Assembly: GCA_029548865.1 (NCBI GenBank)
Contig: JAKPMO010000024.1
Span: 99,256-163,255 of the forward strand
Source of the DNA: Caldisericota bacterium
Lineage (GTDB): Bacteria; Caldisericota; Caldisericia; JAAYUI01
Reading direction: 5' to 3'
DNA: 64,000 nucleotides
The position numbers and the translations under genes were made by a program. The notes under the pieces were generated by a model, which ran no database searches, was not told the origin of the DNA, and saw only the letters and a program-made list of their open reading frames with translations. Of this stretch, positions 18,697 through 64,000 are shown in pieces. Within the stretch, counting starts at the first letter, position 1; every line of letters begins with the position of its first letter.

Positions 18697-18789
18697 GTTT
18701 ACCCCAACAGAACCAGGTTGTCTTCTTTTTAGTATCTGCTAAAATAATTCCAGATATCATTCATGCATGTGCAATGGGGAGGTCATGCG

Positions 18790-21700: not shown

Positions 21701-22092
21701 ATGGTGAGAAAATGCCAAATCCTTCTTCAGCTCCAACTTGCTCTTCTCCGCCCTTGCCAAAAGATTTCAAGGGAACCGCATTTTTACCAATTCAATATCT
21801 GTTAACTAACGCTCTTTATACCAGTGCTTCCTATGATGGAGACACAAATAAAATTACGATCACACAATCTAGCGAGAACGAAATTATCACAGTTATTGAG
21901 CTGGGCATAGGGGAAAAACAAGCCAAAGTTAATGGGGTGGAAGTATGGATTGACAAGAATAAGATCCTATACCCCATAATCATTTCAGGAAGTGTCTTTT
22001 TCCCTCTCAGATTTATGGCCGAGAACTTGAATTGCGATGTTAAGTATGATCCAAAAACCAAGAAAATTACTCTGGCTTATCCAAAACAATAA
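18790..22092 (+). CDS. Large secreted protein (~1100 aa) with C-terminal copper-amine-oxidase-N-terminal-like (CuAO-N) stalk domain
   Basis: GGAGG RBS then MKTKSGFIVLFLIMAIICQQTVVFA signal peptide. Cys-containing N-region, multiple Ig-like/beta-rich segments. C-terminus (GTAFLPIQYL...ITIT...KVNGVEVW...FFPLRFMAENLNCDVKYD) matches the CuAO-N domain used for cell-envelope attachment in Clostridia. Confidence 0.75.
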   Translation: MKTKSGFIVLFLIMAIICQQTVVFAEFGPVKVVPGGQPMQTTQRACRANQPTAFSINFRHTETINFHDWIKVWFPANETLCSIEDACDGIPGISGTLENARFIPCKDYFEKYKDSKESDLGKLYRITNSETADTEFFDCESNQEQKSDCKMIKDPSGLGYWLTGTVMPALPKNDAKRVEKLGNLDHKIRLAGIDCGCSPVYPVIVNIPEERSLKITSSFQIWKGNGPFRNNDDYINLFIQKDVGIISPMSPGKYSVMVATKPEPIPIESEMFVIPCSSISKPVVSFETSDIESASQVKINFSTGEGGALDKGISKIWLEFPEGFSLPKEVLPQNMKINGKPCPKNTSLIATDTQTISVVLPIDINNSSEIEIVFSKLAGIRTPGKKGTYTINAWTDPEPEKVESEPFLIQTRTRVEVEPNLYMHNAKYLAVFNMDDNQQIRLNQEIMITFPEGTILPATAKQGTVLINEIGYAQSISIENKKVTIKAPFEISKMLKIEFSKEFGIKNPPEGEHELFFTIGGKTNSYGKFTIISKPLVSDLILSDYKAKEVSGFSFKYFPSATGNLSPGDIMTLIFPEEYAIPEKIAPENIKIKGHPSRNVLIQKNEITLTLNDEVDLEDNGTLVEISSGAGITNPERRGTYRITVKTSKDEKTESNEYSTKEAKLLTQLVFEDPSEPDGLEYDGWKWFKKPPKVKILSWNPDATVYFWFDNNEAHKTSLDEYPNIDFGEYVQLQSTFSYCSELDDEKEEAKSVKLWVDNILPKIWVQSPEKNILITNKKTITIVGNRAPGELRVYGDRKYTLDGVSINGETILQPEIVEKNLLNSAKMEFEKQILLTEGDNKIKIRGFDLAGNEKIITKIVTLDTTSPEIEIVTPNPKKPQKIGESIAIQIKTETGALVYINGQLAEKIKELPWGIAVFEGNWNVVKGENKIEINSTDMAGNANTIFLTFEGSLYESIIEFWIGKTEFYVNGEKMPNPSSAPTCSSPPLPKDFKGTAFLPIQYLLTNALYTSASYDGDTNKITITQSSENEIITVIELGIGEKQAKVNGVEVWIDKNKILYPIIISGSVFFPLRFMAENLNCDVKYDPKTKKITLAYPKQ

Positions 22093-22104
22093 ACTTTTCG
22101 AGCA

Positions 22105-25100: not shown

Positions 25101-25671
25101 TATCAATAGCTCCACCCATCAATTGTTCAGGGGCCATATAGTTAAAGGTACCAACCACCATGCCCGTACTCGTTATGCGCCCATTTACAACATTTTTTGC
25201 CAAACCAAAATCAATGAGTTTTACTCTTATTCCGGTTTTGATATCCGGGGAGTCGAGCACAATAAGATTACCTGGTTTAATGTCTCTGTGCACAACGGAC
25301 CTCGAATGGATGTGCGAAAGTATCCCGGCAACATCATAAAAAATACCCAACGCCTGCTCTATGCCGACGTTATGAAGTTTTGAAAGGGGAGTTCCTTTCA
25401 CATACTCCATTATGTAGTAATAATCTTCGCCTTCTCTACAGCAATCCCATACTTTCGGGATACCTGGATGATCAAGGGAGGCCAAGATGGAAGCTTCTGA
25501 AAGAAATCTGTTTTTCTCAACATTGTCCCAGTCATCATCTTTAAAATGTGAAATTTTAATAATCACATCTTCATTACTCTGAAGATCCAGCGCAGCGAAG
25601 ACTTCACCCATTCCTCCGCTTCCAATTTTTCTAAGTAGTCTATAGCGACCAAAAATCAGCCGTTCTTCCAT
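22105..25671 (-). CDS. Ser/Thr protein kinase fused to STAND/AAA NTPase and TPR repeats (PknK/MalT-like architecture)
   Basis: Hanks kinase motifs (GSGGMGEVF; HRDIKPGNLIV; DFGLAK; APE). After the kinase, Walker A GPFGIGKT and Walker B IVIILEDIEHLD. C-terminal ~600 aa are TPR-like helical repeats. Confidence 0.85.
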   Translation of the reverse strand: MEERLIFGRYRLLRKIGSGGMGEVFAALDLQSNEDVIIKISHFKDDDWDNVEKNRFLSEASILASLDHPGIPKVWDCCREGEDYYYIMEYVKGTPLSKLHNVGIEQALGIFYDVAGILSHIHSRSVVHRDIKPGNLIVLDSPDIKTGIRVKLIDFGLAKNVVNGRITSTGMVVGTFNYMAPEQLMGGAIDMRADLYSFGATMYNTLTESLPFGSPDPKKIAYQLINASCDPPSHFNGDIPEELDNVILCLLRKDPNERIQSASELLSLMQSITTDEKSNKPAGLVLCEPNMVGREFEMQYLIDSWNSSQTQSVTVCVAGPFGIGKTRLVDEFASIVQLSGKMLLRARGHGSTNSLPMDGLKQLAFHLAHYNLDQYSDLIEQNSKELGFFSQQLCKSKRKSAQSFPNQSACSFAFLKFLKAISFEAPIVIILEDIEHLDKETLDVCFELSSNPELKIIVVFTCLEPTFRSNAAIGLKLHRMSDLRFIDLKNLKKSNVKMMMESMLRGHEVPNDFLNDLWERFGGVPYLLINNIRTFVSQKMLALDSGRLVYKRPISFEDVSGSILSQHLSSLSQISIKILEFACLFEEPFEMEIVMKSLGLTRRQCVNAFYELISSSLLKQRNGFYKSTYEFAYPSMKETVKSRIPDTEKHETHKLIAQILEFSDEVTDEIACQIAKHYKMAGEIDKAVIWAEECAKRLIALGSQTYSEWIDYIHSVGVSESNPVYDVKAKRVLSDIFYAKGDFEKAKALFLEALGQAKKIGVNTEYSLILIHYLKFLFEIGEYSELQKIGSKEAKTPALMGLPSERFVVFEYLALSLKENSNFSEAEDIAKEALYIAQCSLPDKVAEGKAVLFSCLLGDMKMDDASEMAKEIESEVAELNPDVAERHAIELALFEYNMGNYGKTIEMLSNMDKGLLTFRDKTKSAILKSKSFYALGKFDEAIESVNKLSIPDGAEVSRVELEKLVYKSLFITLAHGWEKSGPRTERLIGLAEFQECEACKILPYEVYCYWLSKQKRFDDAMEYFAKAWTISCNLGIEEYMLDCAYWGVSILSYKKIIAKYPSIANLITDEEGLFGGYAQKYEHAVVAGYVYLYRAEKDFREFDHAIRWFVHARELALQKGNKIYMALSAFNLGKAYCERNNSKHKKPYDAEDAEKFFFEAEFVFSAMNAPATVDVVREYQEKHLKRSN

Positions 25672-51845: not shown

Positions 51846-53024
51846 TTACTCAGCAAGCATAACCAGATTCGGGTCTGTTATTTGTTCAATCTTGCCGCCT
51901 ACAAAATCCTTGAGGTTTGTGAATTTCATGGGCAATCCCCTTGAATCAAGTACCGACGGGCCATTCATGATGTGAAAATGCAGGTGTGGAGCATCCGAGT
52001 TGCCAGAATTGCCGCAAAGTCCCAATACCTGTCCCTGTTTCACAATGTCGCCCTTTTTGACCTTCACCGAGCCATTTATCAAGTGGGCGTAGAACGTGAA
52101 CTCGCTTCCGGAGTGTTCCAGAATGACATAGTTCCCACCAGCCATTGCCACTGCGCCAAATTTCTCCATGACTTTCTCCAGCTCCTCCTTGGACAGTCTT
52201 GAGCCGAGATACGGCGGGTTGTTTGGCACACCGTCAACACAATCAACAACCACACCATCTGCGGAAGCAATAACCGCCTTGCCCCAGCAACCATAGTCTT
52301 CGTTCTTGCCAGATGGAGGGTACATCATCAGGTTAGGTTTCTGGATCATCAAATCAAAAGCAAATTCCTGGCTGCTGTTGACCCTGTGGCCATAGTTGGC
52401 ATTGTATGTATTGATGGCCATCCATATACCTTTGGCAGGGAAAATATACTTGTTTTTCAAAACATATTCTGCAACTTGCAAGCCCAGGTCTCTGGAGAAG
52501 GTCTTGTTACCCTTCTGGAATTCAATATGGATGTTGCATTTTGTTGCCGGATTGTCCGAGTAAAACCTGAAGGGAATGTTTATAATTGCGGCCTCCTGGC
52601 CGGGCTCTATTACAACAGATTTGGACGTCTTTTTCAGATCAACAAAGCCCGATGTTCCAAGAAAAATGCCCTCCTGGAAATCATATGTCATCTTCTCAAA
52701 TTTCTCTACATATTTCCCAAAAAGTGAGTTCAGTTCTTCACCTTTATAAATCAAACTGAAGATTTCTCGCTCATTTGCAAAAATCGTAAAAGTCATTGAT
52801 TTTACTTCAATGACTTCTTTGCCATCGTTTGCAATTTTCACTGCTTTCAAAAGGAAATCAGATTCAATACCAAGCTTTACGTCTCTTGTTGCATTGTAAA
52901 TAACATCTGCAGGAAGTGTTGTAATAAAAAGATTTTCACCAGAACCAGCATTTTCGTTTGTCATGCCACACCCCAATGAACAAATGGCCAGCAAAATAGT
53001 CAACGCAAAAGGCATCAGTTTCAT
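51846..53024 (-). CDS. M23-family metallopeptidase lipoprotein (LytM-like)
   Basis: Start at MKLMPFALTILLAICSLGCG (lipobox). C-terminal HSGSEFTFYAHL...GNSGNSDAPHLHFH M23 motifs. The ORF-track start at 53120 is rejected. Confidence 0.85.
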   Translation of the reverse strand: MKLMPFALTILLAICSLGCGMTNENAGSGENLFITTLPADVIYNATRDVKLGIESDFLLKAVKIANDGKEVIEVKSMTFTIFANEREIFSLIYKGEELNSLFGKYVEKFEKMTYDFQEGIFLGTSGFVDLKKTSKSVVIEPGQEAAIINIPFRFYSDNPATKCNIHIEFQKGNKTFSRDLGLQVAEYVLKNKYIFPAKGIWMAINTYNANYGHRVNSSQEFAFDLMIQKPNLMMYPPSGKNEDYGCWGKAVIASADGVVVDCVDGVPNNPPYLGSRLSKEELEKVMEKFGAVAMAGGNYVILEHSGSEFTFYAHLINGSVKVKKGDIVKQGQVLGLCGNSGNSDAPHLHFHIMNGPSVLDSRGLPMKFTNLKDFVGGKIEQITDPNLVMLAE

Positions 53025-53082
53025 TTCGACCTCCTGTCTACAAATTATAGCGACAGGGTGGGCCCACGTCAAAATTGGCACA

Positions 53083-53119
53083 TGCCTGACGAAACCGAGA
53101 GACGGGGTTTCGTCAGGCA
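53083..53119 (-). terminator. Stem-loop downstream of the giant repeat-protein gene
   Basis: TGCCTGACGAAACC-9 nt-GGTTTCGTCAGGCA (14-bp stem), 12 nt after the stop of 53132..56968. The T-tract is weak. Confidence 0.5.
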
Positions 53120-53131
53120 CTGGTATGGAAA

Positions 53132-56100
53132 CTATTTGATATGGATAACTCTGGACTGTCTTGCTGATCTACCAAAGGAATCAACGCAGGTTATCAGGAC
53201 CTCAAAATCACCCTGACTTGAATAGGAATTCTCAAAACTGACCAGATTGTCTTTGCTCTGTATCGTTTTGGTGGATTTGGTTCCATTGCCCCAATTCACT
53301 GTGATTTCATATGGTGGGGCCCCACCCTCGACGGAGAGGTCAAGTTTTATTTCTTCATTTACTCTTGCTTCGTTTGTCTTTGTATTAATACCCTTCCAAG
53401 TTGCGTCAAGAACAATCTCTTTCGTCGGTGGCTGTTTGCAAACACTTATCGTGGCATAATCTGTGACTGCTTCTGCGGAATCGGACACAGCGCTGGCCTT
53501 GTTGGTTATCGTCAGACAATTTCCGGCGAAAGACAAGGATTTTGCAAGACTGAATTTCAGCAAATAGGTCTTTGACTGACCCGGTGACAAACTCCCAACC
53601 TGGTACCTGATTTTGGAAGGGCCAGCAGCGCCGGACGGGAGTGAAGAAACATATTTGAGCTCCCTTGGGAAAACATCATCGAGAACAACGTTTGTGGCAT
53701 CAAGATTGCCGATATTTCTGATGGTTATCTGGAACGCAAATATGTCATCAATGTTGTACTGGAAAGCTTTTGCTTTCTTTGTGACTTCCAGAATAGCTTT
53801 TTTTACAGGTTTTTTTGTGTTGACTGCAACATTGTTTGACAACGCCGGCACTCCCTGGTCCAGTGCGTGCCTTGAAAAAGCCTGGTTGTTTATCTGTGAA
53901 TCTACCGGTGTTTCTTCAACTATTGCAGAAAAACCGAACGAACGCGGTGCCGTGGGTGGGAGATATTTTATAAGCGAGGCCGTGTAAAGATCAGGTGTTT
54001 GATTGTACCACCCAATGAACGGCTCATCGAAATTGTCCTCCATTGCCATTGATACGGCATTGGCAAAATTTGTATACTGTGCGTCAAACCCTCCACCGGT
54101 ATAGGCATTTGCACCGGTGATCGGGTCGAATGGCTGCTTGTTTCCCCCAATCCACCTTGTTCCGTCCCATCTGGCAAAATATATACCCCTGTTTCCGGCA
54201 ATGTTGCCCCACCAGGAAACACACTGGTTGCCAGTTTTATCAACATCTATGCACGTTATTTTAGCCGCAAGGCGCGTTGGGCTGGATGGCCCTCCACCAA
54301 TAACAGCATTCATAGCAACGATGCCATTGGCACCAGTCGCCGGATTATAAGGCATTCCATTGGCCCCAACCCATTGGGTGCCATCCCATTTTACAGAAAC
54401 TATTGCAGTCCCGCCATAAGAGTAGTCGTGCCAGACAATGTTCGGGTTGTCGAATCCATCCAGGCAAAGTGAAGGATAGCTCGAATAGCCACCGTTTCTG
54501 CTAACATTTGCATTTGCGCCGGTGACCGGATCATAGGGGAGACCATTTGCTCCAACCCAGGTGGCGCCATTCCATTTGATGTACACAACATCATAGCCAC
54601 CATAGGAACCTTCTGACCATGAAACACACGGATTTCCAGAACTGTCAAGCCTCAAGACTGGAAATTCCGAGCTGCTGCTTGTTTTGCTTATATCAGCATT
54701 TGCGCCATTATATGGAACACCCTGCACGTTTACCCAGGCAGTTCCATCCCATTTCAGGAAATTGACATCAAAGCTGTATGGAGGCCCGTAATAGTCATAC
54801 CAAACGAGGTTTGGGTTGTTCTGGCCATCTATTGCAAGGGAAACACCGTAAGAAGTGCTTGGCGTATTGCTCACATTGGCATTGGAGCCATCATACTGCT
54901 CGCCCTGAGCATTGACCCACATGTAACCATTCCATCTTACAAAGAATATGTCCCAGCTTGAAACAACGTCCGGGTGGATTTTCTCGCCCCAGGCAATGCA
55001 CGGATACCCATATTTATCAATTGCCAGCGAGGCACCATCTGAATCAGTAATGCTCTTGCTCACATTGGCATTTGCACCGGTCAGCGGATCGTAGGGCTGG
55101 CCATTCACACCAACCCACCTGGCGCCGTCCCATTTAACAAAAAATATGTCATACCTGAAATCATCATGGCCAACATAATCTGAAAATGCCAGGCAAGGAC
55201 GCCCATTAGGACCAAGCGCAAGCGAAACCTGGGCAGCAGTGCCGCTCACAAGCGCATTGTCTGCTACAGGGTCAAAAGGGATGTTGTCGGCTGTGGTCCA
55301 CCCTTGCGGTATTGGCCCCCAGCGAAGCATTGTTCCTGCCTGCGAACCATCCGGTGGCTCTCCAGGGGTCCAGCTCGAACCATTGTCCGTGGAGTATGAA
55401 AGGTCATTGAGCGGGGTTGCGCTCCCCGCAAGATAGTGCGTTCCAGCAGGGACTGTATCATAAACATAAGGGTCAATTAGAGGATCGTTGTTTGGATTGT
55501 TAAAGCTCCAGTCAATCTTGTAATGGAGTGTATCCCCTACCTTCACCTGCTTGCCTGAGTCGTCATATGCACCATCTCCATTTGTGTCCACTGATTTCGT
55601 GATGGTGAAACTGCCGTCGAAACTTGATGTCCACCTGGTAAATAAGATCTCAGGATCACCAGAAGTGTAGTCCATCCATGCAATGCAGGGGTTGCCTGAC
55701 GGGTCAATGGCAAGAGAAGACGAATATGAATCTCCTGAATTGTTGCTCACATTTCCGTTTGTGGCAGTTAGTGCTGCACCTGAAACATTCACCCATGAGG
55801 AGCCGTTCCACCTGGCAAATAAGATCTCATAATTGCCAAGTGTATTATCGTACCATGTAATGCAGGGATTGCCAGAAGGATCGAGAGTAAGACTAGGATA
55901 CCATGAATATCCCGAATTATTGCTTACGTTCCCGTTGGTGGCTGTAAGTGTTGTACCTGAAACATTCACCCATGAGGATCCATTCCATCTGGAAAAAAAG
56001 ATCTCATAATTGCCAGGGGTGTTGTCACACCATGCGATACAGGGGTCGCCAGATGGATCGAGAGTAAGAATAAGATACCATGAACATCCCGAATTACTGC

Positions 56101-56968
56101 TTACATTGCTATTTGTAGCTGTAAGTACTACTCCAGATGCATTGACCCATGATGCGCCATTCCATCTAGTAAAGAAGATTTCGTAATTGCCTGGTGTGTT
56201 GTCCTCCCACGCAATGCAGGGGTTGCCAGAAGGATCAAGAGCAAGGGAAGGATACTCTGACCACCCTGAATTGTTGCTCACATTGGCATTGGTTGCCGTG
56301 ATTATGGCACCCGAAACATTCACCCATGAGAAGCCATTCCATCTGGCAAAGAAGATTTCATCATTGCCAGGGGTGCGGTCTGTCCATGCAATGCAAGGGT
56401 TACTGGAGGAGTCTAGGACAAGGGAAGGCCCATATGAATCTCCTGAATTATTGCTTACGTTCCCATTGGTGGCTGTAAGTGTTGCACCCGAAACATTCAC
56501 CCATGAGGAGCCATTCCATCTGGCAAAAAAGATTTCAGAATTGCCAGGGGTGTAGTCGCTCCATACAATGCAAGGGTTACTGGAGGAATCTAGGGCAAGG
56601 AAAGGCCGATATGAACCTCCTGAATTGTTGCTCACATTGGCATTGGTTGCCGTGAGCGTTGCACCTGAAGCATTCACCCATGAGGAGCCATTCCATCTGG
56701 CAAAGAAGATTTCATCATTGCCTGGTGTGTTGTCTTCCCACGCAATGCAGGGGTTGCCAGAAGGATCAAGAGCAAGGGAAGGACCCCATGAACCTCCTGA
56801 ATTGTTGCTCACGCTTATGTCTATTGGCTGTGGGTTTGCATTTCCAATATATGGTGATCCACCGGCGCCAACCCATCCAACCACTGCCTCTGCCGTCTTT
56901 GGTGCAGGTACAACTGCAAAGCAAGCAAACATAATCGATACAGCAAGCAAAACCCTAATCATCTTCAT
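53132..56968 (-). CDS. Giant secreted repeat protein: ~7 near-identical 60-aa blade repeats + ~7 degenerate 65-70-aa repeats, DUF11-like and PKD/Ig-like C-terminal domains
   Basis: Signal peptide MKMIRVLLAVSIMFACFAVVPAPKTAEA. Repeat unit NVSNNSG.S..PSLALDPSGNPCIAW.D.TPGN.EIFFARWNGSSWVNVSGATLTATN. Second series has ...W.G..WVG.NG.PYDP.TGANA. C-terminus LDATNVVLDDVFPRELKYV (DUF11-like) and a PKD-like final module. Confidence 0.8.
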   Translation of the reverse strand: MKMIRVLLAVSIMFACFAVVPAPKTAEAVVGWVGAGGSPYIGNANPQPIDISVSNNSGGSWGPSLALDPSGNPCIAWEDNTPGNDEIFFARWNGSSWVNASGATLTATNANVSNNSGGSYRPFLALDSSSNPCIVWSDYTPGNSEIFFARWNGSSWVNVSGATLTATNGNVSNNSGDSYGPSLVLDSSSNPCIAWTDRTPGNDEIFFARWNGFSWVNVSGAIITATNANVSNNSGWSEYPSLALDPSGNPCIAWEDNTPGNYEIFFTRWNGASWVNASGVVLTATNSNVSSNSGCSWYLILTLDPSGDPCIAWCDNTPGNYEIFFSRWNGSSWVNVSGTTLTATNGNVSNNSGYSWYPSLTLDPSGNPCITWYDNTLGNYEILFARWNGSSWVNVSGAALTATNGNVSNNSGDSYSSSLAIDPSGNPCIAWMDYTSGDPEILFTRWTSSFDGSFTITKSVDTNGDGAYDDSGKQVKVGDTLHYKIDWSFNNPNNDPLIDPYVYDTVPAGTHYLAGSATPLNDLSYSTDNGSSWTPGEPPDGSQAGTMLRWGPIPQGWTTADNIPFDPVADNALVSGTAAQVSLALGPNGRPCLAFSDYVGHDDFRYDIFFVKWDGARWVGVNGQPYDPLTGANANVSKSITDSDGASLAIDKYGYPCIAWGEKIHPDVVSSWDIFFVRWNGYMWVNAQGEQYDGSNANVSNTPSTSYGVSLAIDGQNNPNLVWYDYYGPPYSFDVNFLKWDGTAWVNVQGVPYNGANADISKTSSSSEFPVLRLDSSGNPCVSWSEGSYGGYDVVYIKWNGATWVGANGLPYDPVTGANANVSRNGGYSSYPSLCLDGFDNPNIVWHDYSYGGTAIVSVKWDGTQWVGANGMPYNPATGANGIVAMNAVIGGGPSSPTRLAAKITCIDVDKTGNQCVSWWGNIAGNRGIYFARWDGTRWIGGNKQPFDPITGANAYTGGGFDAQYTNFANAVSMAMEDNFDEPFIGWYNQTPDLYTASLIKYLPPTAPRSFGFSAIVEETPVDSQINNQAFSRHALDQGVPALSNNVAVNTKKPVKKAILEVTKKAKAFQYNIDDIFAFQITIRNIGNLDATNVVLDDVFPRELKYVSSLPSGAAGPSKIRYQVGSLSPGQSKTYLLKFSLAKSLSFAGNCLTITNKASAVSDSAEAVTDYATISVCKQPPTKEIVLDATWKGINTKTNEARVNEEIKLDLSVEGGAPPYEITVNWGNGTKSTKTIQSKDNLVSFENSYSSQGDFEVLITCVDSFGRSARQSRVIHIK
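55400..56850. repeat. Tandem ~180-bp coding repeats (about 7-8 copies, >85-95% nucleotide identity) inside the giant protein gene
   Basis: Recurring cattcacccatgaggagccattccatctggcaaagaagatttcat at ~55789, 55965, 56140, 56318, 56498 and 56678 (period 176-180 bp). Also visible as repeated peptides in the spurious plus-strand ORFs 56187..56555 and 56568..57074. Confidence 0.8.
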
Positions 56969-57070
56969 GGCTTCTACTCCCTCGAGCAAGCATGTAATTA
57001 ACCAAAAGGCAATGTTACTCTTCTATCGTTATAAGTCAAACAACCATATTATTTATAATATATGTAAAAA

Positions 57071-57490
57071 TTAATTTTTTATAGACTCATTTATATTCAA
57101 AAATGGGCATAGATCAAAATTGTCATGGGATTGTTTATTATCTGGAGATAAAACGTATCCTAGTTCAGAGTGCAAGTCATTCTTTCTAAAGCTGTCGCAG
57201 GAAACTACAGATCCAGGCAAAACAATTTTCTCTAATTCTGTGTTATTTTTTATATTATTATATATTGTTAAATTATCTTGATACACATAAGCTGGTCTAA
57301 AATCAAAACCATCGATGGCTGATCCAACCATTATTCCCATTGGTCTTTTGTCAGTTACATCTGCGATGCTAACTCCAACTTTGTGATCACCAAAATTCAC
57401 CACTACAGTGTTTTCTTGAGCAAGATAACACATGGCAACAATAGGAAGCAACACTCCTATTATGATTAAAATAACACTTCTTCTCTTCAC
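57071..57490 (-). CDS. Small membrane-anchored hypothetical protein; first gene of the low-GC island
   Basis: MKRRSVILIIIGVLLPIVAMCYLA is an N-terminal TM helix. 139 aa. AT-rich. Confidence 0.4.
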   Translation of the reverse strand: MKRRSVILIIIGVLLPIVAMCYLAQENTVVVNFGDHKVGVSIADVTDKRPMGIMVGSAIDGFDFRPAYVYQDNLTIYNNIKNNTELEKIVLPGSVVSCDSFRKNDLHSELGYVLSPDNKQSHDNFDLCPFLNINESIKN

Positions 57491-57531
57491 AAGTTTTTTG
57501 CTAACAACATCTTTTCTTCAAATTGACAAAA

Positions 57532-58752
57532 TTACATTTTCACCGAATATGTACCCCTATTGGTCAGAAAATAGAGTGCACCATCGCGATCTTCATAACG
57601 GGCCAAATAAACCTCAGTTCCATTTTCAAAAGGTTGGATATTATCAACAGTGAACTCGGCCGAACCAGCTACTCCCTCTTTCACTCTAACTATTTTGTAT
57701 CCATCACCAATTTTGAACAGGTAGGATTTATACAAAAAATCTTTAGGTGCATGACCACTATCGTTATTTCTGTTCAATTGCAATGGTGTTACTGCTTCAT
57801 ATCCCTTGCCATCGATCACCTTAACAAATTTCGCTCTATCGCTTTTGCGCTTGGCATCCTTGATCCAACAAATACCGTCAGAATATGGGAAAATCATATC
57901 ATCAGAGAACCCTGGCCTTACATTTTCAACTGGTAGTTTGAAATTGTTGCCTACATCAAAATCACGGACATGCGCAAAAGTGCTTGACGAAAGCAGAAAT
58001 TTACCATCAGAAAAAACGTAGGAGTAATCCTCATATGGGTCATCTTTAGCATTCATTGATTCTATCTTGTTCGGTTCCAAACATGGATCAGAAGCTATTT
58101 TCTCAAAAATTTTCGCTATTCCGTCCTTCTGATCAATCGTGTAATATCTTAATTTGCAGCCATCATTGACTATAAATAATGGAAACTCCGGAAAGATGTC
58201 GTATCCATTATTTACTTTCATTATGCCAAGATCCAGCCCACTATATAAAAGTTTTGCCTCGATAAATCCATTACCTCTAAGAACTAATTGCCGATCTTCA
58301 ATATCAGATGATGGTTCATGTATGGTTTTCTTGCTTATTATCACATCTGATTTGGTTTTTGTTTCCCACAATATCTTCTTTTTCGGTATATCATAACAAG
58401 CAAGATAATTGGAATCTTCCATCTTGCTTAAAACTGACAGAACAAGGGTGCCACCGGTAAAAAATAATGAGTGGTCAATATATTTGCCGCTTAATTCTGT
58501 TTCCCAAACCGGCATTTTTCTTGTTATGTCCTCATAACCAAACATTCTGGTGCCATCTTTGCTGACGGTCAGCAAAAACCTGTCACTTTTAAATGGAGCC
58601 TTATCAACATAACTTATTGGCTTTTCTTCAAAGGGTTTGTTATCGATGAGGTTCCATTTGATATAATTTTCTGGCGCTCCACAGGAAATCAAAGCGGCTG
58701 CAATCAACAAAACAATGGACGATTTTAGGGATATACAGCTCATGGCCACCAA
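57532..58752 (-). CDS. Lipoprotein, hypothetical (possible beta-propeller; ~406 aa)
   Basis: Lipobox LISCGA. PQQ/propeller-like KKILWETK motif. Low-GC DNA. Confidence 0.5.
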   Translation of the reverse strand: MVAMSCISLKSSIVLLIAAALISCGAPENYIKWNLIDNKPFEEKPISYVDKAPFKSDRFLLTVSKDGTRMFGYEDITRKMPVWETELSGKYIDHSLFFTGGTLVLSVLSKMEDSNYLACYDIPKKKILWETKTKSDVIISKKTIHEPSSDIEDRQLVLRGNGFIEAKLLYSGLDLGIMKVNNGYDIFPEFPLFIVNDGCKLRYYTIDQKDGIAKIFEKIASDPCLEPNKIESMNAKDDPYEDYSYVFSDGKFLLSSSTFAHVRDFDVGNNFKLPVENVRPGFSDDMIFPYSDGICWIKDAKRKSDRAKFVKVIDGKGYEAVTPLQLNRNNDSGHAPKDFLYKSYLFKIGDGYKIVRVKEGVAGSAEFTVDNIQPFENGTEVYLARYEDRDGALYFLTNRGTYSVKM

Positions 58753-59984
58753 AAATTATGTGAGTCTTTGTTTCCTCTTATTAGTCGTACGTTGGTTGTA
58801 TAAATACCTTCGTTTGTAAAAAGTGTTATTTTTGAATTTGTAGCGCGCGCGGAATAGGATCTAACATTTTTTATAATCCCGTTAATAGGAGTAAAACCTA
58901 TCTCTGTGTATCCTTTATCAGACATCCAGTAGCCTTTCAGCGTGTATCTACCACCCATCTGTTTTCCAAACAAATAAAAACTCTCCTGAATACCCAGAGA
59001 GAAATCTATTATACCAATACATTCCAGACCAGGGTCATTTATCGAATAGGAAACATCCCCATTCTTTTTCGACACAGCTATAATGCCAGTGTCATTATAG
59101 AAAAACTCATTGGCCATCCAGTGATTCTCTTCAACAGCTTTAGGCCAACATTGTTTTAACAATGAATGTTTCTTTTCCCACACAATCTTGCCAGAAATCA
59201 AATCTATGCTGTAAACAGAGTTGCCATTATAGAACATGAAAGCCCTTGTATCGTCAATTACATTCCTTGCTATTGTACTTACAAAAAACGTTTTTTCTAT
59301 TTCCCCACCAGGAATACTGATGGTTCTTTCCAACTTCAGGTTATTATAAACAAACATATTGTTTCCATCATAACAAACAAACCTGAAATTGCTGCCATAA
59401 TCACCGAATTTGCATAATGCAACTTTTTGGCCAAAATCTTTTTCGAGTATCAATTCTCCATACAAGTCATATACTTGCAGATGTTTCCCATCTTCTGAAA
59501 GACACATGATTTTTTCAAGCTGTTTGTCATCATTGATATAAAAAGAATTAACAATTTTTGCAGATTTGGTGTCTTTTTCCCAGAACAAATAGGCCTCAGA
59601 CCAATCACTTTTACACACCCTTATAACGTCAACAATTTTATTGCCAGCGTTTGTACGTATAATTGCAAGCAAATGCTCTGAGTCATATTTGGTAAAACAG
59701 TCCTGTTTATAGTAAACACCGGCAAGCTCACAACCTGATGCTGTCCATGCTATCGAAAGTATCTCGCCACCAACATCAAACTCGCGAATTCTAGATAACA
59801 CCTTATTAACCAGGACCAGTTTACTTTCTTCAGCCACAACGACCTCACCACCATACAAAACAAGTAAAGGCTTAAATACTTCGTCACTTACTTTCTGCAC
59901 GCTGTTGATTTTCAATATGCATCCTCCAACAGAAGCACAAAATATGATTATTAATATTACCGGAATTGATATTGCCTTTTTCAT
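58740..59984 (-). CDS. Lipoprotein, hypothetical (possible beta-propeller; ~414 aa)
   Basis: Signal peptide with ASVGGC lipobox. ISGKIVWEKK motif. 13-nt overlap with the downstream lipoprotein gene. Confidence 0.5.
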   Translation of the reverse strand: MKKAISIPVILIIIFCASVGGCILKINSVQKVSDEVFKPLLVLYGGEVVVAEESKLVLVNKVLSRIREFDVGGEILSIAWTASGCELAGVYYKQDCFTKYDSEHLLAIIRTNAGNKIVDVIRVCKSDWSEAYLFWEKDTKSAKIVNSFYINDDKQLEKIMCLSEDGKHLQVYDLYGELILEKDFGQKVALCKFGDYGSNFRFVCYDGNNMFVYNNLKLERTISIPGGEIEKTFFVSTIARNVIDDTRAFMFYNGNSVYSIDLISGKIVWEKKHSLLKQCWPKAVEENHWMANEFFYNDTGIIAVSKKNGDVSYSINDPGLECIGIIDFSLGIQESFYLFGKQMGGRYTLKGYWMSDKGYTEIGFTPINGIIKNVRSYSARATNSKITLFTNEGIYTTNVRLIRGNKDSHNFWWP

Positions 59985-60108
59985 GCTCCTCCTTTAGCTA
60001 AAAGTTTCCTTTTCCATGGCCTCAGTGTTCTTAGATTGAGAGACGGATTTTTCCCACACTCTCCTACTTGTTTTTTTGGAACTATCAGATCTTCGAGAAT
60101 TTATAATA

Positions 60109-61362
60109 TCATTTGAATACAATCTTGAATGGACGTTTGATGCTGTATTGGTAAACACGGCTGTGAGTCAAGAATACATGATTTTCTATATAATTTTCAT
60201 AACCATTTTGGTTTGTATCCAAAAGAAAAATATATCCTCTATATTCACCCTCAAAGGATTCACAGGTGACAACCTTGGCTTTGCCTTCTGTGGCAAGGAT
60301 AAGGACAGGTTCATATTTGTTGCCACCAAGTTGTCTGAGGAAAATGGCCGTATTTACTGAAGAGAATACATTGTTCTCATTATTATTTAAGCTATCTATC
60401 AGCTTCCATCCATCACCATCAACAATTAACTTTGTTTCTCCGGTGCTGGAGGATATGGCCATTATGCCTTGTTTTGTTGGGACAAAGTAGCATCCCAATC
60501 TGTCTACTCCGTTCCCAATGATGTCAATCTGTTTTTTCCATAATACTTTCTTCTCTTTGAATGATACACTCCAGGCATTGGAGCCATCATAGAACAATAC
60601 TTCATTGTTGTCTCTTACATTGAAGTAACCTATGAGTATCATTCTGTCATTGATTGGAACATCATCCAGTTTGATTGTTCCATCAATAGAGCCATCATCG
60701 TTGTAATGTGTAAGGAATTGGCCATCGAAAATGTATAATGATTCGGTAAAATATTCCCTCTCTGGACCTGAGATAAATGATGGTTTGTCCAATTTGAGTA
60801 TTTTCGGTTCGTCTTTTAAATTCGATGTAAGATACATGTAAATTGTGTCGTTTTTTGATGTAGTACAAAATAGGTGATATGGGGAGAGGTACAATATGCG
60901 ATTGCAGGGTGTTTTTGTGCATCCTGATATAGTGAATTTGTCACCCTGTTCGTTTATTTTGCATATGTAATTGCCATCCTCTTTTTGAATCAAAAAGAAG
61001 TATTTGCCGAGTTGTGATATTATTTTGCCTGGAAACTCCAGATAATTGTCTTTATTTGTAATGGCATCAAGCAATTCATTGGTTATGTAGCCGTCATCTC
61101 CTATCTTGAGTTTCGCTATGCCGTTACCATAAAAATAGTATCCAGGATATCCCCATGCCCATCCACATATTTCTTTGATTTCCTTTTTTATGCTGGTGCT
61201 ATCAAGGTGGTTGGTTCGATTGATGATGAAAGCATCGTTGGATTTTTTCCCAAAGGTATTGATGATGCCCACCTCCTTTTGACACAAGACACAAGAGGCT
61301 ATGAAGAGGAGGGCCAGTACAGCAGCAACCACCGTTACAACAACCCACATTTTCTTATTCAT
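60109..61362 (-). CDS. Tandem-array lipoprotein paralogue 1 (417 aa)
   Basis: MNKKMWVVVTVVAAVLALLFIASC (lipobox IASC). AGGAGG RBS 10 nt upstream. Shares long identical blocks with paralogues 2 and 3 (e.g. FLTHYNDDGSIDGTIKLDDVPINDRMILIGYFNVRDNNEVLFYDG; RVYQYSIKRPFKIVFK C-terminus). Confidence 0.6.
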   Translation of the reverse strand: MNKKMWVVVTVVAAVLALLFIASCVLCQKEVGIINTFGKKSNDAFIINRTNHLDSTSIKKEIKEICGWAWGYPGYYFYGNGIAKLKIGDDGYITNELLDAITNKDNYLEFPGKIISQLGKYFFLIQKEDGNYICKINEQGDKFTISGCTKTPCNRILYLSPYHLFCTTSKNDTIYMYLTSNLKDEPKILKLDKPSFISGPEREYFTESLYIFDGQFLTHYNDDGSIDGTIKLDDVPINDRMILIGYFNVRDNNEVLFYDGSNAWSVSFKEKKVLWKKQIDIIGNGVDRLGCYFVPTKQGIMAISSSTGETKLIVDGDGWKLIDSLNNNENNVFSSVNTAIFLRQLGGNKYEPVLILATEGKAKVVTCESFEGEYRGYIFLLDTNQNGYENYIENHVFLTHSRVYQYSIKRPFKIVFK

Positions 61363-61588
61363 TTTATCAGTACCTCCTCTTCATGTTCTCTGTTATGATT
61401 TTATACCACTGTCAAGGTATTGGTTTTTTGTAGTTCTTGCCAACTTTGCTTTTTGCAGAAACGGTACCTTTGAGAGAATGCATAGTATACCTATCATCAT
61501 TACCGTTAGTTGTGACTATAAGATCATCAATTGTTTTCCCAAGATTTTCAAAAGCTTTTCCAAAAGCATTCTGTGAGGATTTATGACA

Positions 61589-62833
61589 TCATTTAAACAC
61601 GATCTTGAATGGACGCTTGATGCCGTATTGGTAAACACGATCGTGGGTGAGGAAAACGAAATTATATTGATCATTTGGAGTGCCACCATCGCGATGTATG
61701 TCTATCAAGAAAAAGTACCCTTTGTATTCACCCTCAAAGGGTTCACAGGTAACAACCTTGGCTTTGCCTTCTGTGGCAAGGAGAAGGACAGGTTCATATT
61801 TGTTGTTGCTGAGTTGTCTAAGAAAAGCAAAAACGTCACCGGAAGAATATGTGTTGCGCTCGTTATCATTTGCACTGTCTACCAGTTTCCACCCATCACC
61901 ATCAACAATTAATTTTGTTTCTCCGGTACTGGAGGATATGGCCATTATACCTTGCTTTGTTGGTGCAAAGTAGCATCCCAATCTGTCTGCTCCCTGACCG
62001 ATGATGTCAATCTGTTTTTTCCATAGCACTTTTTTATCTTTAAAAGAGATGCCCCAGGCATTGAAACCATCATAGAAGAGGACTTCGTTGTTGTCTCTTA
62101 CGTTAAAGTAGCCTATAAGTATCATTCTGTCATTGATTGGAACGTCATCCAGTTTGATTGTTCCATCAATAGAACCATCATCGTTGTAGTGGGTGAGGAA
62201 TTGGCCATCGAAAATGTATAATGATCCCCTGAAGTGATTTCTCTCCGGACTCGAAATGAATGAAGGTTTGTTGAGTTTCAATATCTTTGGAGTGTTTTTC
62301 AAATCAAATGCAGGATACATATAGATCACATCATTGTCAGATGTTGTGCAGCATAAATAATCCTGAATATAACATACTATGCGACTGCAGGGTGTTTTTA
62401 TATATCCTGATATAATGAATTTGTCATCCTGTTCGTTTATTCTGTATAAATAATTGCCATCACTACGTTCAATCAAAAAATCATTCCACATTCGTGATAT
62501 TATCTTCCCTGAAAATCCGATATAATTATTTTTATTTATGATCGTATCTAATAGATCATCAGTTATATAGTCACCTCTTATTTTGAATTTCGATATGCTG
62601 TTAGCATAAGAATAGTATCCAGGGTATTCCCATCCATATACTTCTTTGATTTCCTTTTTTATGCTGGTGCTCCCAAGGTGGCTGGTTCGGTTTACGATGA
62701 AGGTCATATCAGATCTTTCTCCAAAGGTATTGATGATACGCACCTCCTTTTGACACAAGACACAAGAGGCTATGAAGAGGAGGACCAGTACAGCAGCAAC
62801 CACCGTTACAACAACCCACATTTTTTTATTCAT
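61589..62833 (-). CDS. Tandem-array lipoprotein paralogue 2 (414 aa)
   Basis: Identical signal peptide/lipobox, conserved central and C-terminal blocks, divergent in residues ~40-230 and ~330-400. Confidence 0.6.
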   Translation of the reverse strand: MNKKMWVVVTVVAAVLVLLFIASCVLCQKEVRIINTFGERSDMTFIVNRTSHLGSTSIKKEIKEVYGWEYPGYYSYANSISKFKIRGDYITDDLLDTIINKNNYIGFSGKIISRMWNDFLIERSDGNYLYRINEQDDKFIISGYIKTPCSRIVCYIQDYLCCTTSDNDVIYMYPAFDLKNTPKILKLNKPSFISSPERNHFRGSLYIFDGQFLTHYNDDGSIDGTIKLDDVPINDRMILIGYFNVRDNNEVLFYDGFNAWGISFKDKKVLWKKQIDIIGQGADRLGCYFAPTKQGIMAISSSTGETKLIVDGDGWKLVDSANDNERNTYSSGDVFAFLRQLSNNKYEPVLLLATEGKAKVVTCEPFEGEYKGYFFLIDIHRDGGTPNDQYNFVFLTHDRVYQYGIKRPFKIVFK

Positions 62834-63038
62834 TTTATCAGTACCTCCTCTTCATGTTCTCTGTTATGATTTTATACCACTGTCAAGGTATTGGTTTTTT
62901 GTAGTTTTTGCCAACTTTGCCTTTTTCAGAAACAGCGCCTTTGAGGGAATGCATAGTATACCTATCATCATTACCATTAATTGTAACTATACGATCTTTA
63001 TCTCCCAATCTTGCAAAAGCACTTCTAAGTTTCTAATA

Positions 63039-64000
63039 TTATTTAAATACATACTTAAACGGATGCCTAATACTGTATTGATAAACACAGCATTGAGTCA
63101 AGAATACATTGTTATCTATATAATTTTCATAACCATTTTGGCTTGTATCCAAAAGATGAATGTATCCTCTATATTCACCCTCAAAAGGCGCACAGGTGAC
63201 AACCTGGGCTTTGCCTTCTGTGGCAAGGATAAGGACAGGTTCGTATTTGTTGTTGCTGAGTTGTCGGATAAAAACGAAAATATCACCGGAGGAGTATGTT
63301 CCATGCTCATTATCACCCCAGCTGTCTACTAGCTTCCATCCATCACCATCAATAATTAACTTTGTTTCTCCGGTATTGGAGGATATGGCCATTATGCCTT
63401 GCTTTGTTGGGACAAAGTAACACCCCAATCTGTCTACTCCGTTCCCAATAATGTCAATCTGTTTTTTCCATAGAACTTTTTTATCTTTAAAAGAGATGCC
63501 CCAGGCATTGAAACCATCATAGAAGAGGACTTCGTTGTTGTCTCTTACATTGAAGTAGCCTATGAGTATCATTCTGTCATTGATTGGAACATCATCCAGT
63601 TTGATTGTTCCATCAATAGAGCCATCATCATTGTAGTGTGTAAGAAATTGGCCATCGAAAATGTATAATGATTCGGTAAAATATTCCCTCTCTGGACCTG
63701 AGATAAATGAAGATTTACCCAACTTGAGTATTTTTGGTGCGTCTTTTAAATAATCCCATTTATCCATTCTTGGATACATGTAAATCGTGTCGTTCTTTGA
63801 TGTAGTACAAAATAGGTGATATGGGGAAAGGTACAATATGCGATTGCAGGGTGTTTTTATGTATCCTGATATAGTGAATTTGTCATCCTGTTCATTTATT
63901 CTGCATATGTAATTGCCATCCTCTTTTTGAATCAAAAAGAAGTATTTGCCGAGTTGTGATATTATTTTGCCTGGAAACTCCAGATAATTGTCTTTATTTG
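63039..64000 (-). CDS. Tandem-array lipoprotein paralogue 3, N-terminus beyond window end
   Basis: Frame stays open to base 64000. 63936-64000 matches 60985-61060 of paralogue 1. The ORF-track Met at 63935 is internal. Confidence 0.55.
   Translation of the reverse strand, partial: NKDNYLEFPGKIISQLGKYFFLIQKEDGNYICRINEQDDKFTISGYIKTPCNRILYLSPYHLFCTTSKNDTIYMYPRMDKWDYLKDAPKILKLGKSSFISGPEREYFTESLYIFDGQFLTHYNDDGSIDGTIKLDDVPINDRMILIGYFNVRDNNEVLFYDGFNAWGISFKDKKVLWKKQIDIIGNGVDRLGCYFVPTKQGIMAISSNTGETKLIIDGDGWKLVDSWGDNEHGTYSSGDIFVFIRQLSNNKYEPVLILATEGKAQVVTCAPFEGEYRGYIHLLDTSQNGYENYIDNNVFLTQCCVYQYSIRHPFKYVFK

What the first reader, a model, noticed from the sequence alone, without database searches (positions are those of the whole stretch)
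57000..64000. Low-GC island of >=6 consecutive minus-strand lipoprotein genes ending in a tandem array of mosaic paralogues
From ~57.0 kb the DNA becomes visibly AT-richer than the preceding core (rough visual estimate, mid-30s % GC versus ~45-50% for the core). It encodes only envelope proteins: a small TM protein, two ~410-aa lipoproteins (overlapping by 13 nt) and at least three ~415-aa lipoprotein paralogues in head-to-tail tandem (period 1471 bp). The paralogues share identical signal peptides, identical C-termini and long identical central blocks, but differ in discrete cassettes. That pattern is typical of gene conversion or recombinational shuffling among surface-protein families (antigenic or receptor variation). 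The proteins carry W-containing propeller-like motifs but match no family I can name. The array continues past the window end.
Basis: partly seen in the sequence, partly recalled or inferred. Interest (0 to 1): 0.65.

Follow-up and report, generated by a model that had tools for sequence, protein, structure and literature searches.

The report
Toxin-linked array of membrane-anchored propeller genes
The low-GC tandem genes are real, but they are best read as a strain-variable bank of probable immunity genes left behind an RHS "contact-weapon" toxin gene of an uncultured Caldisericales bacterium, each copy still carrying a scrap of the toxin gene's end.

Summary
Window 57-64 kb is 36.7% GC against 44.4% for the rest. 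It carries six consecutive minus-strand genes, ending in three tandem mosaic paralogues (period 1450-1480 bp).

Two points change the picture:
- **Anchor, not lipoprotein.** The lipobox is not conserved across the family. The conserved feature is an N-terminal transmembrane helix followed by a roughly 7-bladed beta-propeller.
- **Toxin-gene relics in the spacers.** Each spacer between copies contains the last ~50 codons, the stop codon and the 49-nt leader of an RHS/YD-repeat toxin gene.

In four independent assemblies a 2412-aa, Sec-exported RHS protein sits 49 nt upstream of the first copy. Its core is conserved and its C-terminal domain varies between strains. One of these contigs (L042) is the orthologue of the window's locus.

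Copy number varies from 1 to 7 between strains. Recombination tests are strongly positive. All copies are intact, with dN/dS of about 0.2.

The best reading (about 0.55) is an array of immunity genes of a new fold, paired with a new RHS toxin domain. Function is inferred from gene position only, and copy numbers rest on short-read metagenome assemblies. The family occurs only in Caldisericales.

The parts
63039..64000 (-). Array copy c3: the C-terminal ~319 aa of a membrane-anchored beta-propeller paralogue, cut by the window end.
   Evidence: The frame is open to base 63998. It is 87% nt identical to c1 and 77% to c2, with alternating tracts.
62883..63023 (-). Relic of the last ~46 codons plus the stop codon of an RHS toxin gene, in the c3-c2 spacer.
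   Evidence: tblastn with the RHS C-terminus gives 70% identity, E=2.4e-12. The alignment to three live RHS 3' ends is.
62834..62882 (-). Conserved 49-nt leader of c2 (TGgTATAAA extended -10-like box and GAGGAGG ribosome-binding site). It is identical to the RHS-to-first-copy intergenic region in relatives.
   Evidence: Promoter function is inferred; the generic promoter scan found no enrichment.
61589..62833 (-). Array copy c2 (414 aa): N-terminal transmembrane helix, linker and ~7-bladed beta-propeller.
   Evidence: The exact protein is on JGI contig Ga0116243_10000140.
61412..61573 (-). Relic of the last 53 codons plus the stop codon of an RHS toxin gene, in the c2-c1 spacer.
   Evidence: tblastn gives 68% identity, E=2.1e-14. 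By eye on the alignment it differs at only a few positions over ~200 nt from the live RHS 3' end and leader of contig L042.
61363..61411 (-). Conserved 49-nt leader of c1. The TATAAA box is at 61405-61400 and GAGGAGG at 61379-61373.
60109..61362 (-). Array copy c1 (417 aa), used for the structure model.
   Evidence: AlphaFold2 gives pLDDT 75 and pTM 0.73: helix 3-30, disordered 27-73, then an all-beta domain. The best PDB matches are BamB and other propellers, TM 0.4-0.57.
59985..60108 (-). Array boundary spacer. Its first ~40 nt still resemble the start of the other spacers; the rest is unique.
58740..59984 (-). 414-aa distant paralogue (about 19% identity to c1) with a lipobox-like V-G-G-C. 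It is highly conserved between strains.
   Evidence: hhalign against the family profile gives probability 100%. The exact sequence is listed in 64 blocks of the collection.
57532..58752 (-). 406-aa distant paralogue (about 22% identity to c1) with lipobox-like L-I-S-C. In some strains it is fused to the array leader and N-terminus.
   Evidence: The chimeric form is seen in L029, L030, L032, L042 and P0044.
57071..57490 (-). 139-aa protein with one N-terminal transmembrane helix. It marks the end of the low-GC block.
   Evidence: No family matched.
53132..56989 (-). Flank: 1285-aa BNR-like/DUF11/PKD surface protein at core GC, with internal 177-bp repeats.
   Evidence: Orthologues of 865-1285 aa flank the array in relatives.
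51846..53120 (-). Flank: M23 peptidase, used as a synteny anchor.
   Evidence: It is 86% aa identical to the M23 gene downstream of the RHS-headed array in L042.

Best explanation
The array is the downstream part of an RHS (YD-repeat) polymorphic-toxin locus of an uncultured Caldisericales bacterium.

**Shown.** In relatives, a 2412-aa Sec-exported RHS protein ends 49 nt before the first array gene. Its core is conserved and its ~450-aa C-terminal domain varies between strains. Each later array unit is [last ~50 codons + stop + 49-nt leader of that RHS gene] + [gene for an N-terminally membrane-anchored, outward-facing ~7-bladed beta-propeller]. The units recombine with one another, giving mosaics, 1-7 copies per array and exchange between two arrays.

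**Inferred.**
- The propellers are immunity proteins that bind the incoming toxin domain at the outer face of the membrane.
- Keeping several diverged, individually expressed copies protects against the different toxin alleles carried by neighbouring strains.
- One illegitimate duplication, from inside the RHS 3' end to the propeller stop codon, created the first extra unit. Unequal crossing-over in the conserved leader and 5' coding region then expanded and shuffled the array.
- In this genome the RHS gene most likely lies a few copies beyond the window end.
For: 1. **RHS-to-family junction.** It is seen in four independent assemblies with an identical 49-nt leader: L002/L020, L019, L021 and L042. 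MAG contig L033 shows it too.
2. **Orthologous locus.** L042 is a single 32.9-kb contig: RHS, then five copies each separated by a relic, then a 406-type gene, a 139-type gene, the DUF11 protein (90% aa to the window), M23 (86%) and SBF.
3. **Relics in the window.** Both window spacers match the RHS C-terminus (E=2e-14 and 2e-12). Spacer 61363-61588 is nearly identical to the L042 RHS 3' end over ~200 nt.
4. **RHS hallmarks.** YD repeats, the Rhs_assc_core domain and a PxxxxDPxGF motif are present, as is a signal peptide. The core is 92-100% identical between contigs and identity drops to 42-90% after the motif.
5. **Different toxin allele, different first propeller.** The L021 copy is at most 76% identical to any other.
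6. **All copies look functional.** They are intact, dN/dS is 0.2, and they share one leader and ribosome-binding site.
7. **Strain variation and recombination**.
8. **Topology.** A positively charged N-terminus, a helix and an extracytoplasmic propeller suit a toxin that arrives from outside.
9. **Related loci.** Other RHS loci alternate orphan RHS C-terminal fragments with 360-470-aa N-terminally anchored proteins.
Against: - There is no functional test. Immunity is inferred from position only.
- The protein is large (412 aa) and a full beta-propeller. Zhang et al. [quoted passage not shown] The nearest precedent is the partial propeller Tsi1.
- The toxin domain has no recognisable activity. 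Pfam, NCBIfam and PDB gave nothing, and the structure model failed at pLDDT 32.
- Family members also occur away from any RHS gene. A second array lies between a Fer4_5 gene and a 49-aa/691-aa gene pair. Single-copy genes lie downstream of sbcCD in more distant relatives.
- The relic type co-varies with the upstream gene's tail (r=0.33, p=0.007), not with the downstream gene (r=0.10, p=0.16). Units are therefore not inherited as intact 'toxin tail + cognate immunity' modules.
- No region has dN/dS above 1.
- The RHS gene itself is not in the window.
- All comparative data come from short-read metagenome assemblies that mostly break inside the array.
Confidence: 0.55

Rival explanations
1. The array is a polymorphic surface-protein family (adhesin, receptor, or phage- or predator-evasion protein) diversified by recombination. 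Its link to the RHS gene is only positional: the first duplication happened to start inside the neighbouring gene's 3' end.
For: - The family exists without RHS in a second array and as a single-copy gene after sbcCD.
- Even that single-copy orthologue is low-GC (36% against 49%). Its 5' two-thirds are 51-64% nt identical between two relatives whose flanks are 80-90% identical. Hypervariability is therefore intrinsic to the family.
- The mosaic is real.
- The relic does not co-vary with the downstream gene.
Against: - The gene directly after a polymorphic RHS C-terminal domain is the immunity gene in characterised systems (Poole 2011, PMC3150448).
- The junction is conserved in four assemblies carrying different toxin alleles.
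- Relics are also present in the RHS-less array, so that array derives from the RHS-linked one.
- No elevated dN/dS was found.
- There is no expression-site and silent-cassette layout.
Confidence: 0.22
2. The propellers are accessory partners of the RHS protein. They might act as a surface anchor, an export or activation helper, or a self-recognition partner, rather than as neutralising immunity proteins.
For: - Linkage to RHS is tight.
- They share a membrane-anchored extracytoplasmic location with a Sec-exported RHS protein.
- Their size and fold are atypical for immunity proteins.
- The best fold matches are BamB and EMC1, which are scaffold subunits of membrane-protein assembly machines.
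Against: - An accessory factor would not be expected in up to seven diverged copies, nor in arrays and single-copy loci lacking RHS.
- The fold matches are generic (TM 0.4-0.57).
Confidence: 0.12
3. Much of the apparent mosaic structure and copy-number variation is an artefact of short-read metagenome assembly across 1.47-kb repeats drawn from mixed strains.
For: - Nearly all contigs end inside the array.
- L002 (RHS, seven copies, then the 49-aa/691-aa pair) and L009 (Fer4_5, five copies, then the 414-aa gene) are reciprocal joins of the two arrays. L002 shares three 100%-identical copies with L003, which has a different upstream flank.
Against: - The copies are 12-30% diverged at nt level, so they are separable by assemblers.
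- Identical alleles recur in independent samples (L009_e = L013_a; L011_a = L014_a).
- The single-copy and three-copy states are each seen in three assemblies.
- The relics and the RHS junction cannot arise from mis-joining.
Confidence: 0.06

Closest known systems
Rhs / WapA-type polymorphic toxin-immunity loci with orphan modules (Poole et al. 2011, PMC3150448; Zhang et al. 2012, PMC3482391)
   Same: - A large YD-repeat shell protein with a conserved core.
- A PxxxxDPxG motif followed by a strain-variable C-terminal domain.
- A separately translated gene immediately downstream.
- Further downstream, units that retain pieces of the toxin gene.
- Recombination and rearrangement at the locus.
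- Sec signal peptide, as in WapA-type toxins.
   Different: - The relics keep only the last ~50 codons of the toxin gene. They lack the DPxG motif and the toxin domain, so they cannot reload the main gene.
- The downstream genes are all paralogues of one family rather than unrelated immunity genes.
- The putative immunity protein is a 412-aa membrane-anchored full beta-propeller.
- The toxin domain has no known relatives.
Polyimmunity loci and orphan immunity gene arrays (Zhang et al. 2012, PMC3482391)
   Same: - Four or more tandem, independently expressible putative immunity genes.
- They are sometimes found without an adjacent toxin gene, as in the Fer4_5 array.
- The proposed role is pre-emptive protection against neighbours' toxins.
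   Different: - Described loci mix different immunity families, whereas this array holds one recombining family.
- Extended loci were reported only from Proteobacteria, Bacteroidetes, Firmicutes and Actinobacteria, not from Caldisericota.
Tsi1, the periplasmic immunity protein of the Tse1 amidase (Benz et al. 2012, PMC3391265)
   Same: An extracytoplasmic all-beta immunity protein, described as a partial beta-propeller.
   Different: Tsi1 has three sheets and belongs to a type VI secretion effector pair. There is no sequence relation, no array and no membrane helix.
BamB / PQQ-like 8-bladed beta-propeller lipoproteins
   Same: An envelope-anchored beta-propeller. BamB chains are the top Foldseek hits (E=2e-8).
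   Different: - Pfam PQQ_2 and NCBIfam BamB models score far below their cut-offs (E=0.05-0.2).
- TM-scores are only 0.4-0.57.
- The model has about 7 blades.
- The anchor is a transmembrane helix, and there is no Bam context.
Gene-conversion antigenic variation systems (pilE/pilS, vlsE, msp2). Characterisation is from my own knowledge.
   Same: Tandem related cassettes with conserved and variable blocks, and recombination between them.
   Different: There is no single expression locus and there are no promoterless partial cassettes. All copies are complete and under purifying selection.

Membership tests
RHS/YD-repeat polymorphic toxin system | A large protein with RHS/YD repeats and the RHS repeat-associated core domain. 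| tested here: met
   In relatives, not in the window. L020 RHS has RHS_repeat at E=1e-71, YD_repeat_2x at E=1e-61 and Rhs_assc_core at E=4e-18 over residues 1881-1961. The window holds only 3' relics.
RHS/YD-repeat polymorphic toxin system | A PxxxxDPxG[LWF] motif that separates a conserved core from a strain-variable C-terminal domain. | tested here: met
   The motif is NPVSFGDPSGF at about residue 1957. Identity between contigs is 92-100% before the motif and 42-90% after it.
RHS/YD-repeat polymorphic toxin system | A cognate immunity gene immediately downstream that neutralises the C-terminal domain. | not testable with these tools
   The position criterion is met: a 49-nt gap and its own ribosome-binding site in four assemblies. 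Neutralisation and binding cannot be computed here.
RHS/YD-repeat polymorphic toxin system | Orphan modules, meaning toxin C-terminal fragments that retain the DPxG-encoding region plus an immunity gene. | tested here: not met
   The relics in the window and its relatives cover only the last ~46-53 codons. Classical orphans with the motif occur in more distant loci, L046 and L047.
Bacterial lipoproteins (Lgt/Lsp substrates) | A conserved lipobox [LVI][ASTVI][GAS]C at the end of the signal peptide. | tested here: not met
   For the array family, I-A-S-C or F-I-A-C is present in 16 of 43 homologues. The rest have A-F-C, R-A-S-C with Trp, or no Cys. The 406-aa and 414-aa genes do carry lipobox-like L-I-S-C and V-G-G-C.
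BamB / PQQ_2 beta-propeller family | A match to the family profile above its curated cut-off. | tested here: not met
   PQQ_2 scores 11.7 bits against a 27.6 cut-off, and only for the 414-aa gene. BamB models score 10-12 bits against cut-offs of 285-423.
Beta-propeller fold (structural class) | Repeated four-stranded antiparallel blades closed into a ring. | tested here: met
   The AF2 model has pLDDT 75 and pTM 0.73, with about 28 strands in about 7 blades. Foldseek found 423 PDB propeller matches at E<=1e-3. The blade count is read from the strand list, not from coordinates.
Antigenic-variation cassette system | One expression site plus silent, truncated donor cassettes. | tested here: not met
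   All copies are full-length with an identical leader and ribosome-binding site. dN/dS is 0.2.
Integrative genomic island | A flanking tRNA, an integrase and direct repeats. | tested here: not met
   The window has no tRNA. In spanning contigs the array lies between RHS or Fer4_5 and core genes, and no integrase was called. The window was not specifically scanned for integrases.

The most novel reading that the evidence does not exclude
This is a new class of immunity protein: a full beta-propeller tethered to the outer face of the cytoplasmic membrane. It would intercept a previously unknown ~450-aa RHS toxin domain that contains a glycine-zipper-like hydrophobic segment and may be membrane-active. 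The immunity genes are kept as a recombining, strain-specific repertoire in two arrays. Exchange between those arrays may also drive large chromosomal rearrangements in Caldisericota.
Probability: 0.35. Interest if true: 0.72.

Novelty: new variant of a known kind. Interest (0 to 1): 0.58.

Why it matters
**If the immunity reading is right**
- It adds a new fold (a full beta-propeller, membrane-tethered) and a new toxin domain to the polymorphic-toxin catalogue.
- It extends extended immunity arrays to Caldisericota, a barely studied phylum that is common in anaerobic digesters.
- It gives a clean natural example of how an immunity-only array forms: the scars of the toxin gene's 3' end are still readable in every spacer.

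**Practical consequences**
- These repeats break almost every metagenome assembly of this lineage at the same place.
- The orphan propeller family (8 clusters among 1.84 billion representatives) now has a testable function.

**If the reading is wrong**
The locus is still a well-documented, strain-variable recombining surface-protein array. That would be of moderate interest.

Tried and rejected
**Searches that found nothing or failed**
- Pfam, NCBIfam, PADLOC and PHROGs scans of all six island proteins and of the toxin C-terminal fragment P0051 gave nothing above threshold.
- A PDB profile search with the toxin C-terminal domain gave only noise.
- AlphaFold of the toxin fragment P0051 without an alignment was unusable, at pLDDT 32.
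- The generic sigma-70 promoter and terminator scan found no more sites than shuffled sequence. The promoter in the leader is therefore only an inference from conservation.
- A literature search for Caldisericota together with Rhs or polymorphic toxins found no prior description.

**Tests that went against or did not support the immunity reading**
- I tested whether each relic co-varies with its downstream gene, as the 'module' idea predicts. It does not (r=0.10, p=0.16). It follows the upstream gene's tail (r=0.33, p=0.007), as simple linkage predicts.
- A region-wise dN/dS analysis found no sign of positive selection, with a maximum of 0.37.
- I compared the 360-470-aa genes that follow orphan RHS fragments in L046 and L047 with the window family. 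The result is inconclusive: hhalign probability is 45% at E=2e-4, with BLASTP links only through P0048 and P0049.
- C-terminal-domain-only similarity between those loci and the L020 toxin is marginal (E=0.001-0.008, CT-only BLAST).

**Readings considered and rejected**
- Antigenic-variation cassette system.
- tRNA/integrase island.
- BamB orthologue.

Full report
**1. The observation**

Window 57001-64000 is 36.7% GC and the first 57 kb are 44.4%. A second low-GC stretch (38-40%) lies at 19-25 kb.

Six ORFs follow one another on the minus strand:
- 139 aa with one transmembrane helix (57071-57490)
- 406 aa (57532-58752)
- 414 aa (58740-59984); the overlap with the 406-aa gene is 13 nt for the longest ORF and 4 nt for the ATG start used by JGI
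- three head-to-tail paralogues: c1 (60109-61362), c2 (61589-62833) and c3 (63039 onward, open to the window end)

c1/c2 are 78% identical at nt level, c1/c3 87% and c2/c3 77%. Identity in 50-nt blocks ranges from 46 to 100%. A 52-aa block is identical in all three proteins.

The mosaic is not a chance pattern. Among 254 informative sites, c3 switches between c1-like and c2-like states in 99 runs, against 144.8 +/- 6.6 in shuffles (p<1e-4). One tract holds 15 consecutive c2-type sites.

**2. What the proteins are**

No Pfam, NCBIfam, PADLOC or PHROGs model matches.

AlphaFold2 with 34 homologues gives a usable model (pLDDT 75, pTM 0.73). It has a helix at residues 3-30, a disordered linker to about residue 73, and then an all-beta domain of about seven four-stranded blades. 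Foldseek finds hundreds of propellers, with BamB on top, but TM-scores are only 0.4-0.57. The fold is a beta-propeller; membership of the BamB family is not supported.

The 'lipoprotein' label fails as a family feature. The window copies read L-F-I-A-S-C, but most homologues have A-F-C or no cysteine at all. The conserved feature is a positively charged N-terminus followed by a hydrophobic helix. That is a membrane anchor with the propeller outside the cell; the topology is inferred.

The 414-aa and 406-aa genes are distant paralogues (19-23% identity; hhalign probability 100%).

The family is tiny. There are 43 clusters at 90% identity among 5.8 billion proteins, the named ones all from Caldisericales MAGs. 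There are 8 clusters at 50% identity among 1.84 billion representatives. Among 185,579 species genomes it occurs only in Caldisericales/Caldisericia MAGs, plus two short contigs binned as Bacteroidota that are probably mis-binned.

**3. The key finding: the spacers are scars of an RHS toxin gene**

The window matches JGI metagenome contig Ga0116243_10000140, which ends inside the array. Almost every other assembly of this locus also ends there.

In contig L002/L020 a 2412-aa protein ends 49 nt before the first array copy. Its last ~55 residues (...GNDGRYTVGSLRGAVSAKGKVGKNYKKPIP*) are the sequence found in every inter-copy spacer.

tblastn of that C-terminus hits window 61573-61415 (68% identity, E=2e-14) and 63023-62886 (70%, E=2e-12). 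The stop codon and the following 49 nt (TGgTATAAA ... GAGGAGG ... ATG) are conserved in all units.

The upstream protein is a bona fide RHS polymorphic toxin:
- It has a Sec signal peptide.
- It has RHS/YD repeats and the Rhs_assc_core domain.
- It has the motif NPVSFGDPSGF.
- Between three contigs the core is 92-100% identical, and identity falls to 42-90% directly after the motif.

The ~450-aa C-terminal domain has no Pfam, NCBIfam or PDB relatives. It contains a glycine-rich hydrophobic segment, MGMGAMFMGMLL.

The RHS-to-propeller junction recurs in L019 (ENA), L021 (JGI), L033 (MAG UR.bin110) and L042 (MAG GCA_019136575.1).

L042 is decisive for the window. One 32.9-kb contig reads RHS, five copies each separated by a relic, a 406-type gene, a 139-type gene, the DUF11 protein (90% aa to the window's), M23 (86%) and SBF. 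This is the orthologue of the window's locus. In addition, the window spacer 61363-61588 is nearly identical over ~200 nt to the 3' end of the L042 RHS gene.

**4. Variation between strains**

There are two arrays in this lineage:
- One is headed by RHS and ends at the 414/406/139-DUF11-M23 genes. This is the window's type.
- The other lies between an OAD operon/Fer4_5 gene and a 49-aa/691-aa gene pair. It holds 1 copy (L005, L034, L035), 3 copies (L043-L045) or 4 copies (L003), and its spacers also carry relics.

Contigs L002 (RHS, 7 copies, then 49/691) and L009 (Fer4_5, 5 copies, then 414) are reciprocal joins of the two arrays. They are either real inter-array recombinants or assembly chimeras. 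I cannot tell which.

Across 19 distinct copies, 51% of site pairs fail the four-gamete test. Neighbouring sites are far more compatible: PHI is 0.328 against 0.511 +/- 0.005 in permutations.

Some strains carry a chimera of the array leader and N-terminus fused to the 406-type body.

All copies are intact. dN/dS is 0.2 overall. The variable cassettes (c1 residues 61-210, 321-345 and 381-400) have high dS of about 1.1, rather than high dN/dS. This pattern fits old alleles being shuffled, with the conserved blocks homogenised.

**5. Interpretation**

The position directly after a polymorphic RHS C-terminal domain is what defines immunity genes in characterised Rhs, CDI and WapA systems (PMC3150448; PMC3482391). 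Several further features fit an immunity repertoire against a toxin delivered from outside:
- each copy has its own leader;
- the copies are intact and diverged;
- the repertoire differs between strains;
- the predicted location is extracytoplasmic.

I hold this reading at about 0.55. The reasons for caution are:
- It rests on gene position alone.
- A full propeller of 412 aa would be unprecedented. Zhang et al. state that such domains had not been found among immunity proteins. Tsi1 is only a partial propeller.
- The relic type does not co-vary with the downstream gene.
- More distant homologues are single-copy genes after sbcCD with no RHS nearby. They are nevertheless also low-GC and hypervariable in their 5' two-thirds.

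More distant RHS loci (L046, L047) alternate classical orphan RHS C-terminal fragments with 360-470-aa N-terminally anchored proteins. Their sequence relation to this family is only suggestive.

The rival readings are:
- a polymorphic surface protein linked to RHS by accident (0.22);
- an accessory partner of the RHS protein (0.12);
- largely an assembly artefact (0.06).

**6. Verdict**

The antigenic-variation, island and lipoprotein ideas are not.

The feature is best described as a new variant of a known kind. It is an RHS polymorphic-toxin locus whose downstream array consists of immunity-like genes only, from a novel membrane-anchored propeller family, each preceded by a short scar of the toxin gene.

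Noticed in passing
window 56000-56812 (inside ORF 53132-56989, minus strand): A 177-bp tandem repeat (4.6 copies, 77% matches) encodes BNR-like repeats of the 1285-aa DUF11/PKD surface protein. Orthologues range from 865 to 1285 aa between strains, so the repeat number is itself polymorphic.
   Followed up: partly
window 18763-25671: A second low-GC stretch (38-40%). It covers a 1109-aa protein with Glucodextran_B and Cu_amine_oxidN1 domains and a convergent 1188-aa Ser/Thr kinase-AAA_16-TPR protein. In relatives the kinase lies about 10 kb from the Fer4_5-side array.
   Followed up: partly
L002 (RHS, 7 copies, then 49/691) versus L009 (Fer4_5, 5 copies, then 414): These are reciprocal joins of the entrances and exits of the two arrays. 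If real, they imply a large rearrangement (for example an inversion) by recombination between the arrays. Otherwise they are assembly chimeras.
   Followed up: partly
L029 1579-2838; L030 about 1500-2758; L032; L042 14062-15213; P0044: A chimeric gene joins the array leader, signal/TM region and 'CQKEVGI' to the body of the 406-aa paralogue, with the 414-aa gene missing. This marks a recombination hotspot in the conserved 5' region.
   Followed up: partly
L038 10001-11227 and L040 10001-11191: Distant single-copy homologues (47-49% identity to c1) lie 20-66 nt downstream of sbcCD. Their GC is 36% against 49% for the upstream flank. Their 5' two-thirds are 51-64% nt identical, where the flanks are 80-90% identical.
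   Followed up: yes
L046 1-8495 and L047 1-13065: These are classical orphan arrays. RHS C-terminal fragments of 571-622 aa retain the NRYIYCHQNP..DPAGY motif and alternate with 360-470-aa lipobox- or TM-anchored proteins. L046 also encodes a 1440-aa multi-PQQ propeller protein nearby.
   Followed up: partly
L019 9700-10100: The RHS gene of this contig is interrupted by a frameshift inside the C-terminal domain, giving ORFs of 2078 aa and 316 aa. Coverage is only 4.6x, so this is either a pseudogene or a sequencing error.
   Followed up: no
window 63987-64000: The window extends 14 nt beyond the end of the matching JGI contig Ga0116243_10000140. The window was therefore taken from a slightly different record of the same assembly or genome.
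   Followed up: no
L031, L032 (JAKPTX010000150.1, JAKPTX010000228.1): Two short contigs carrying the array are binned in a 'Bacteroidota' MAG. Their gene content and identity to Caldisericales loci suggest mis-binning.
   Followed up: no
RHS C-terminal domain, L020 residues about 2306-2325 (MGMGAMFMGMLLNG): A glycine-zipper-like hydrophobic segment is invariant in the aligned toxin alleles. It may hint at a membrane-active toxin.
   Followed up: no
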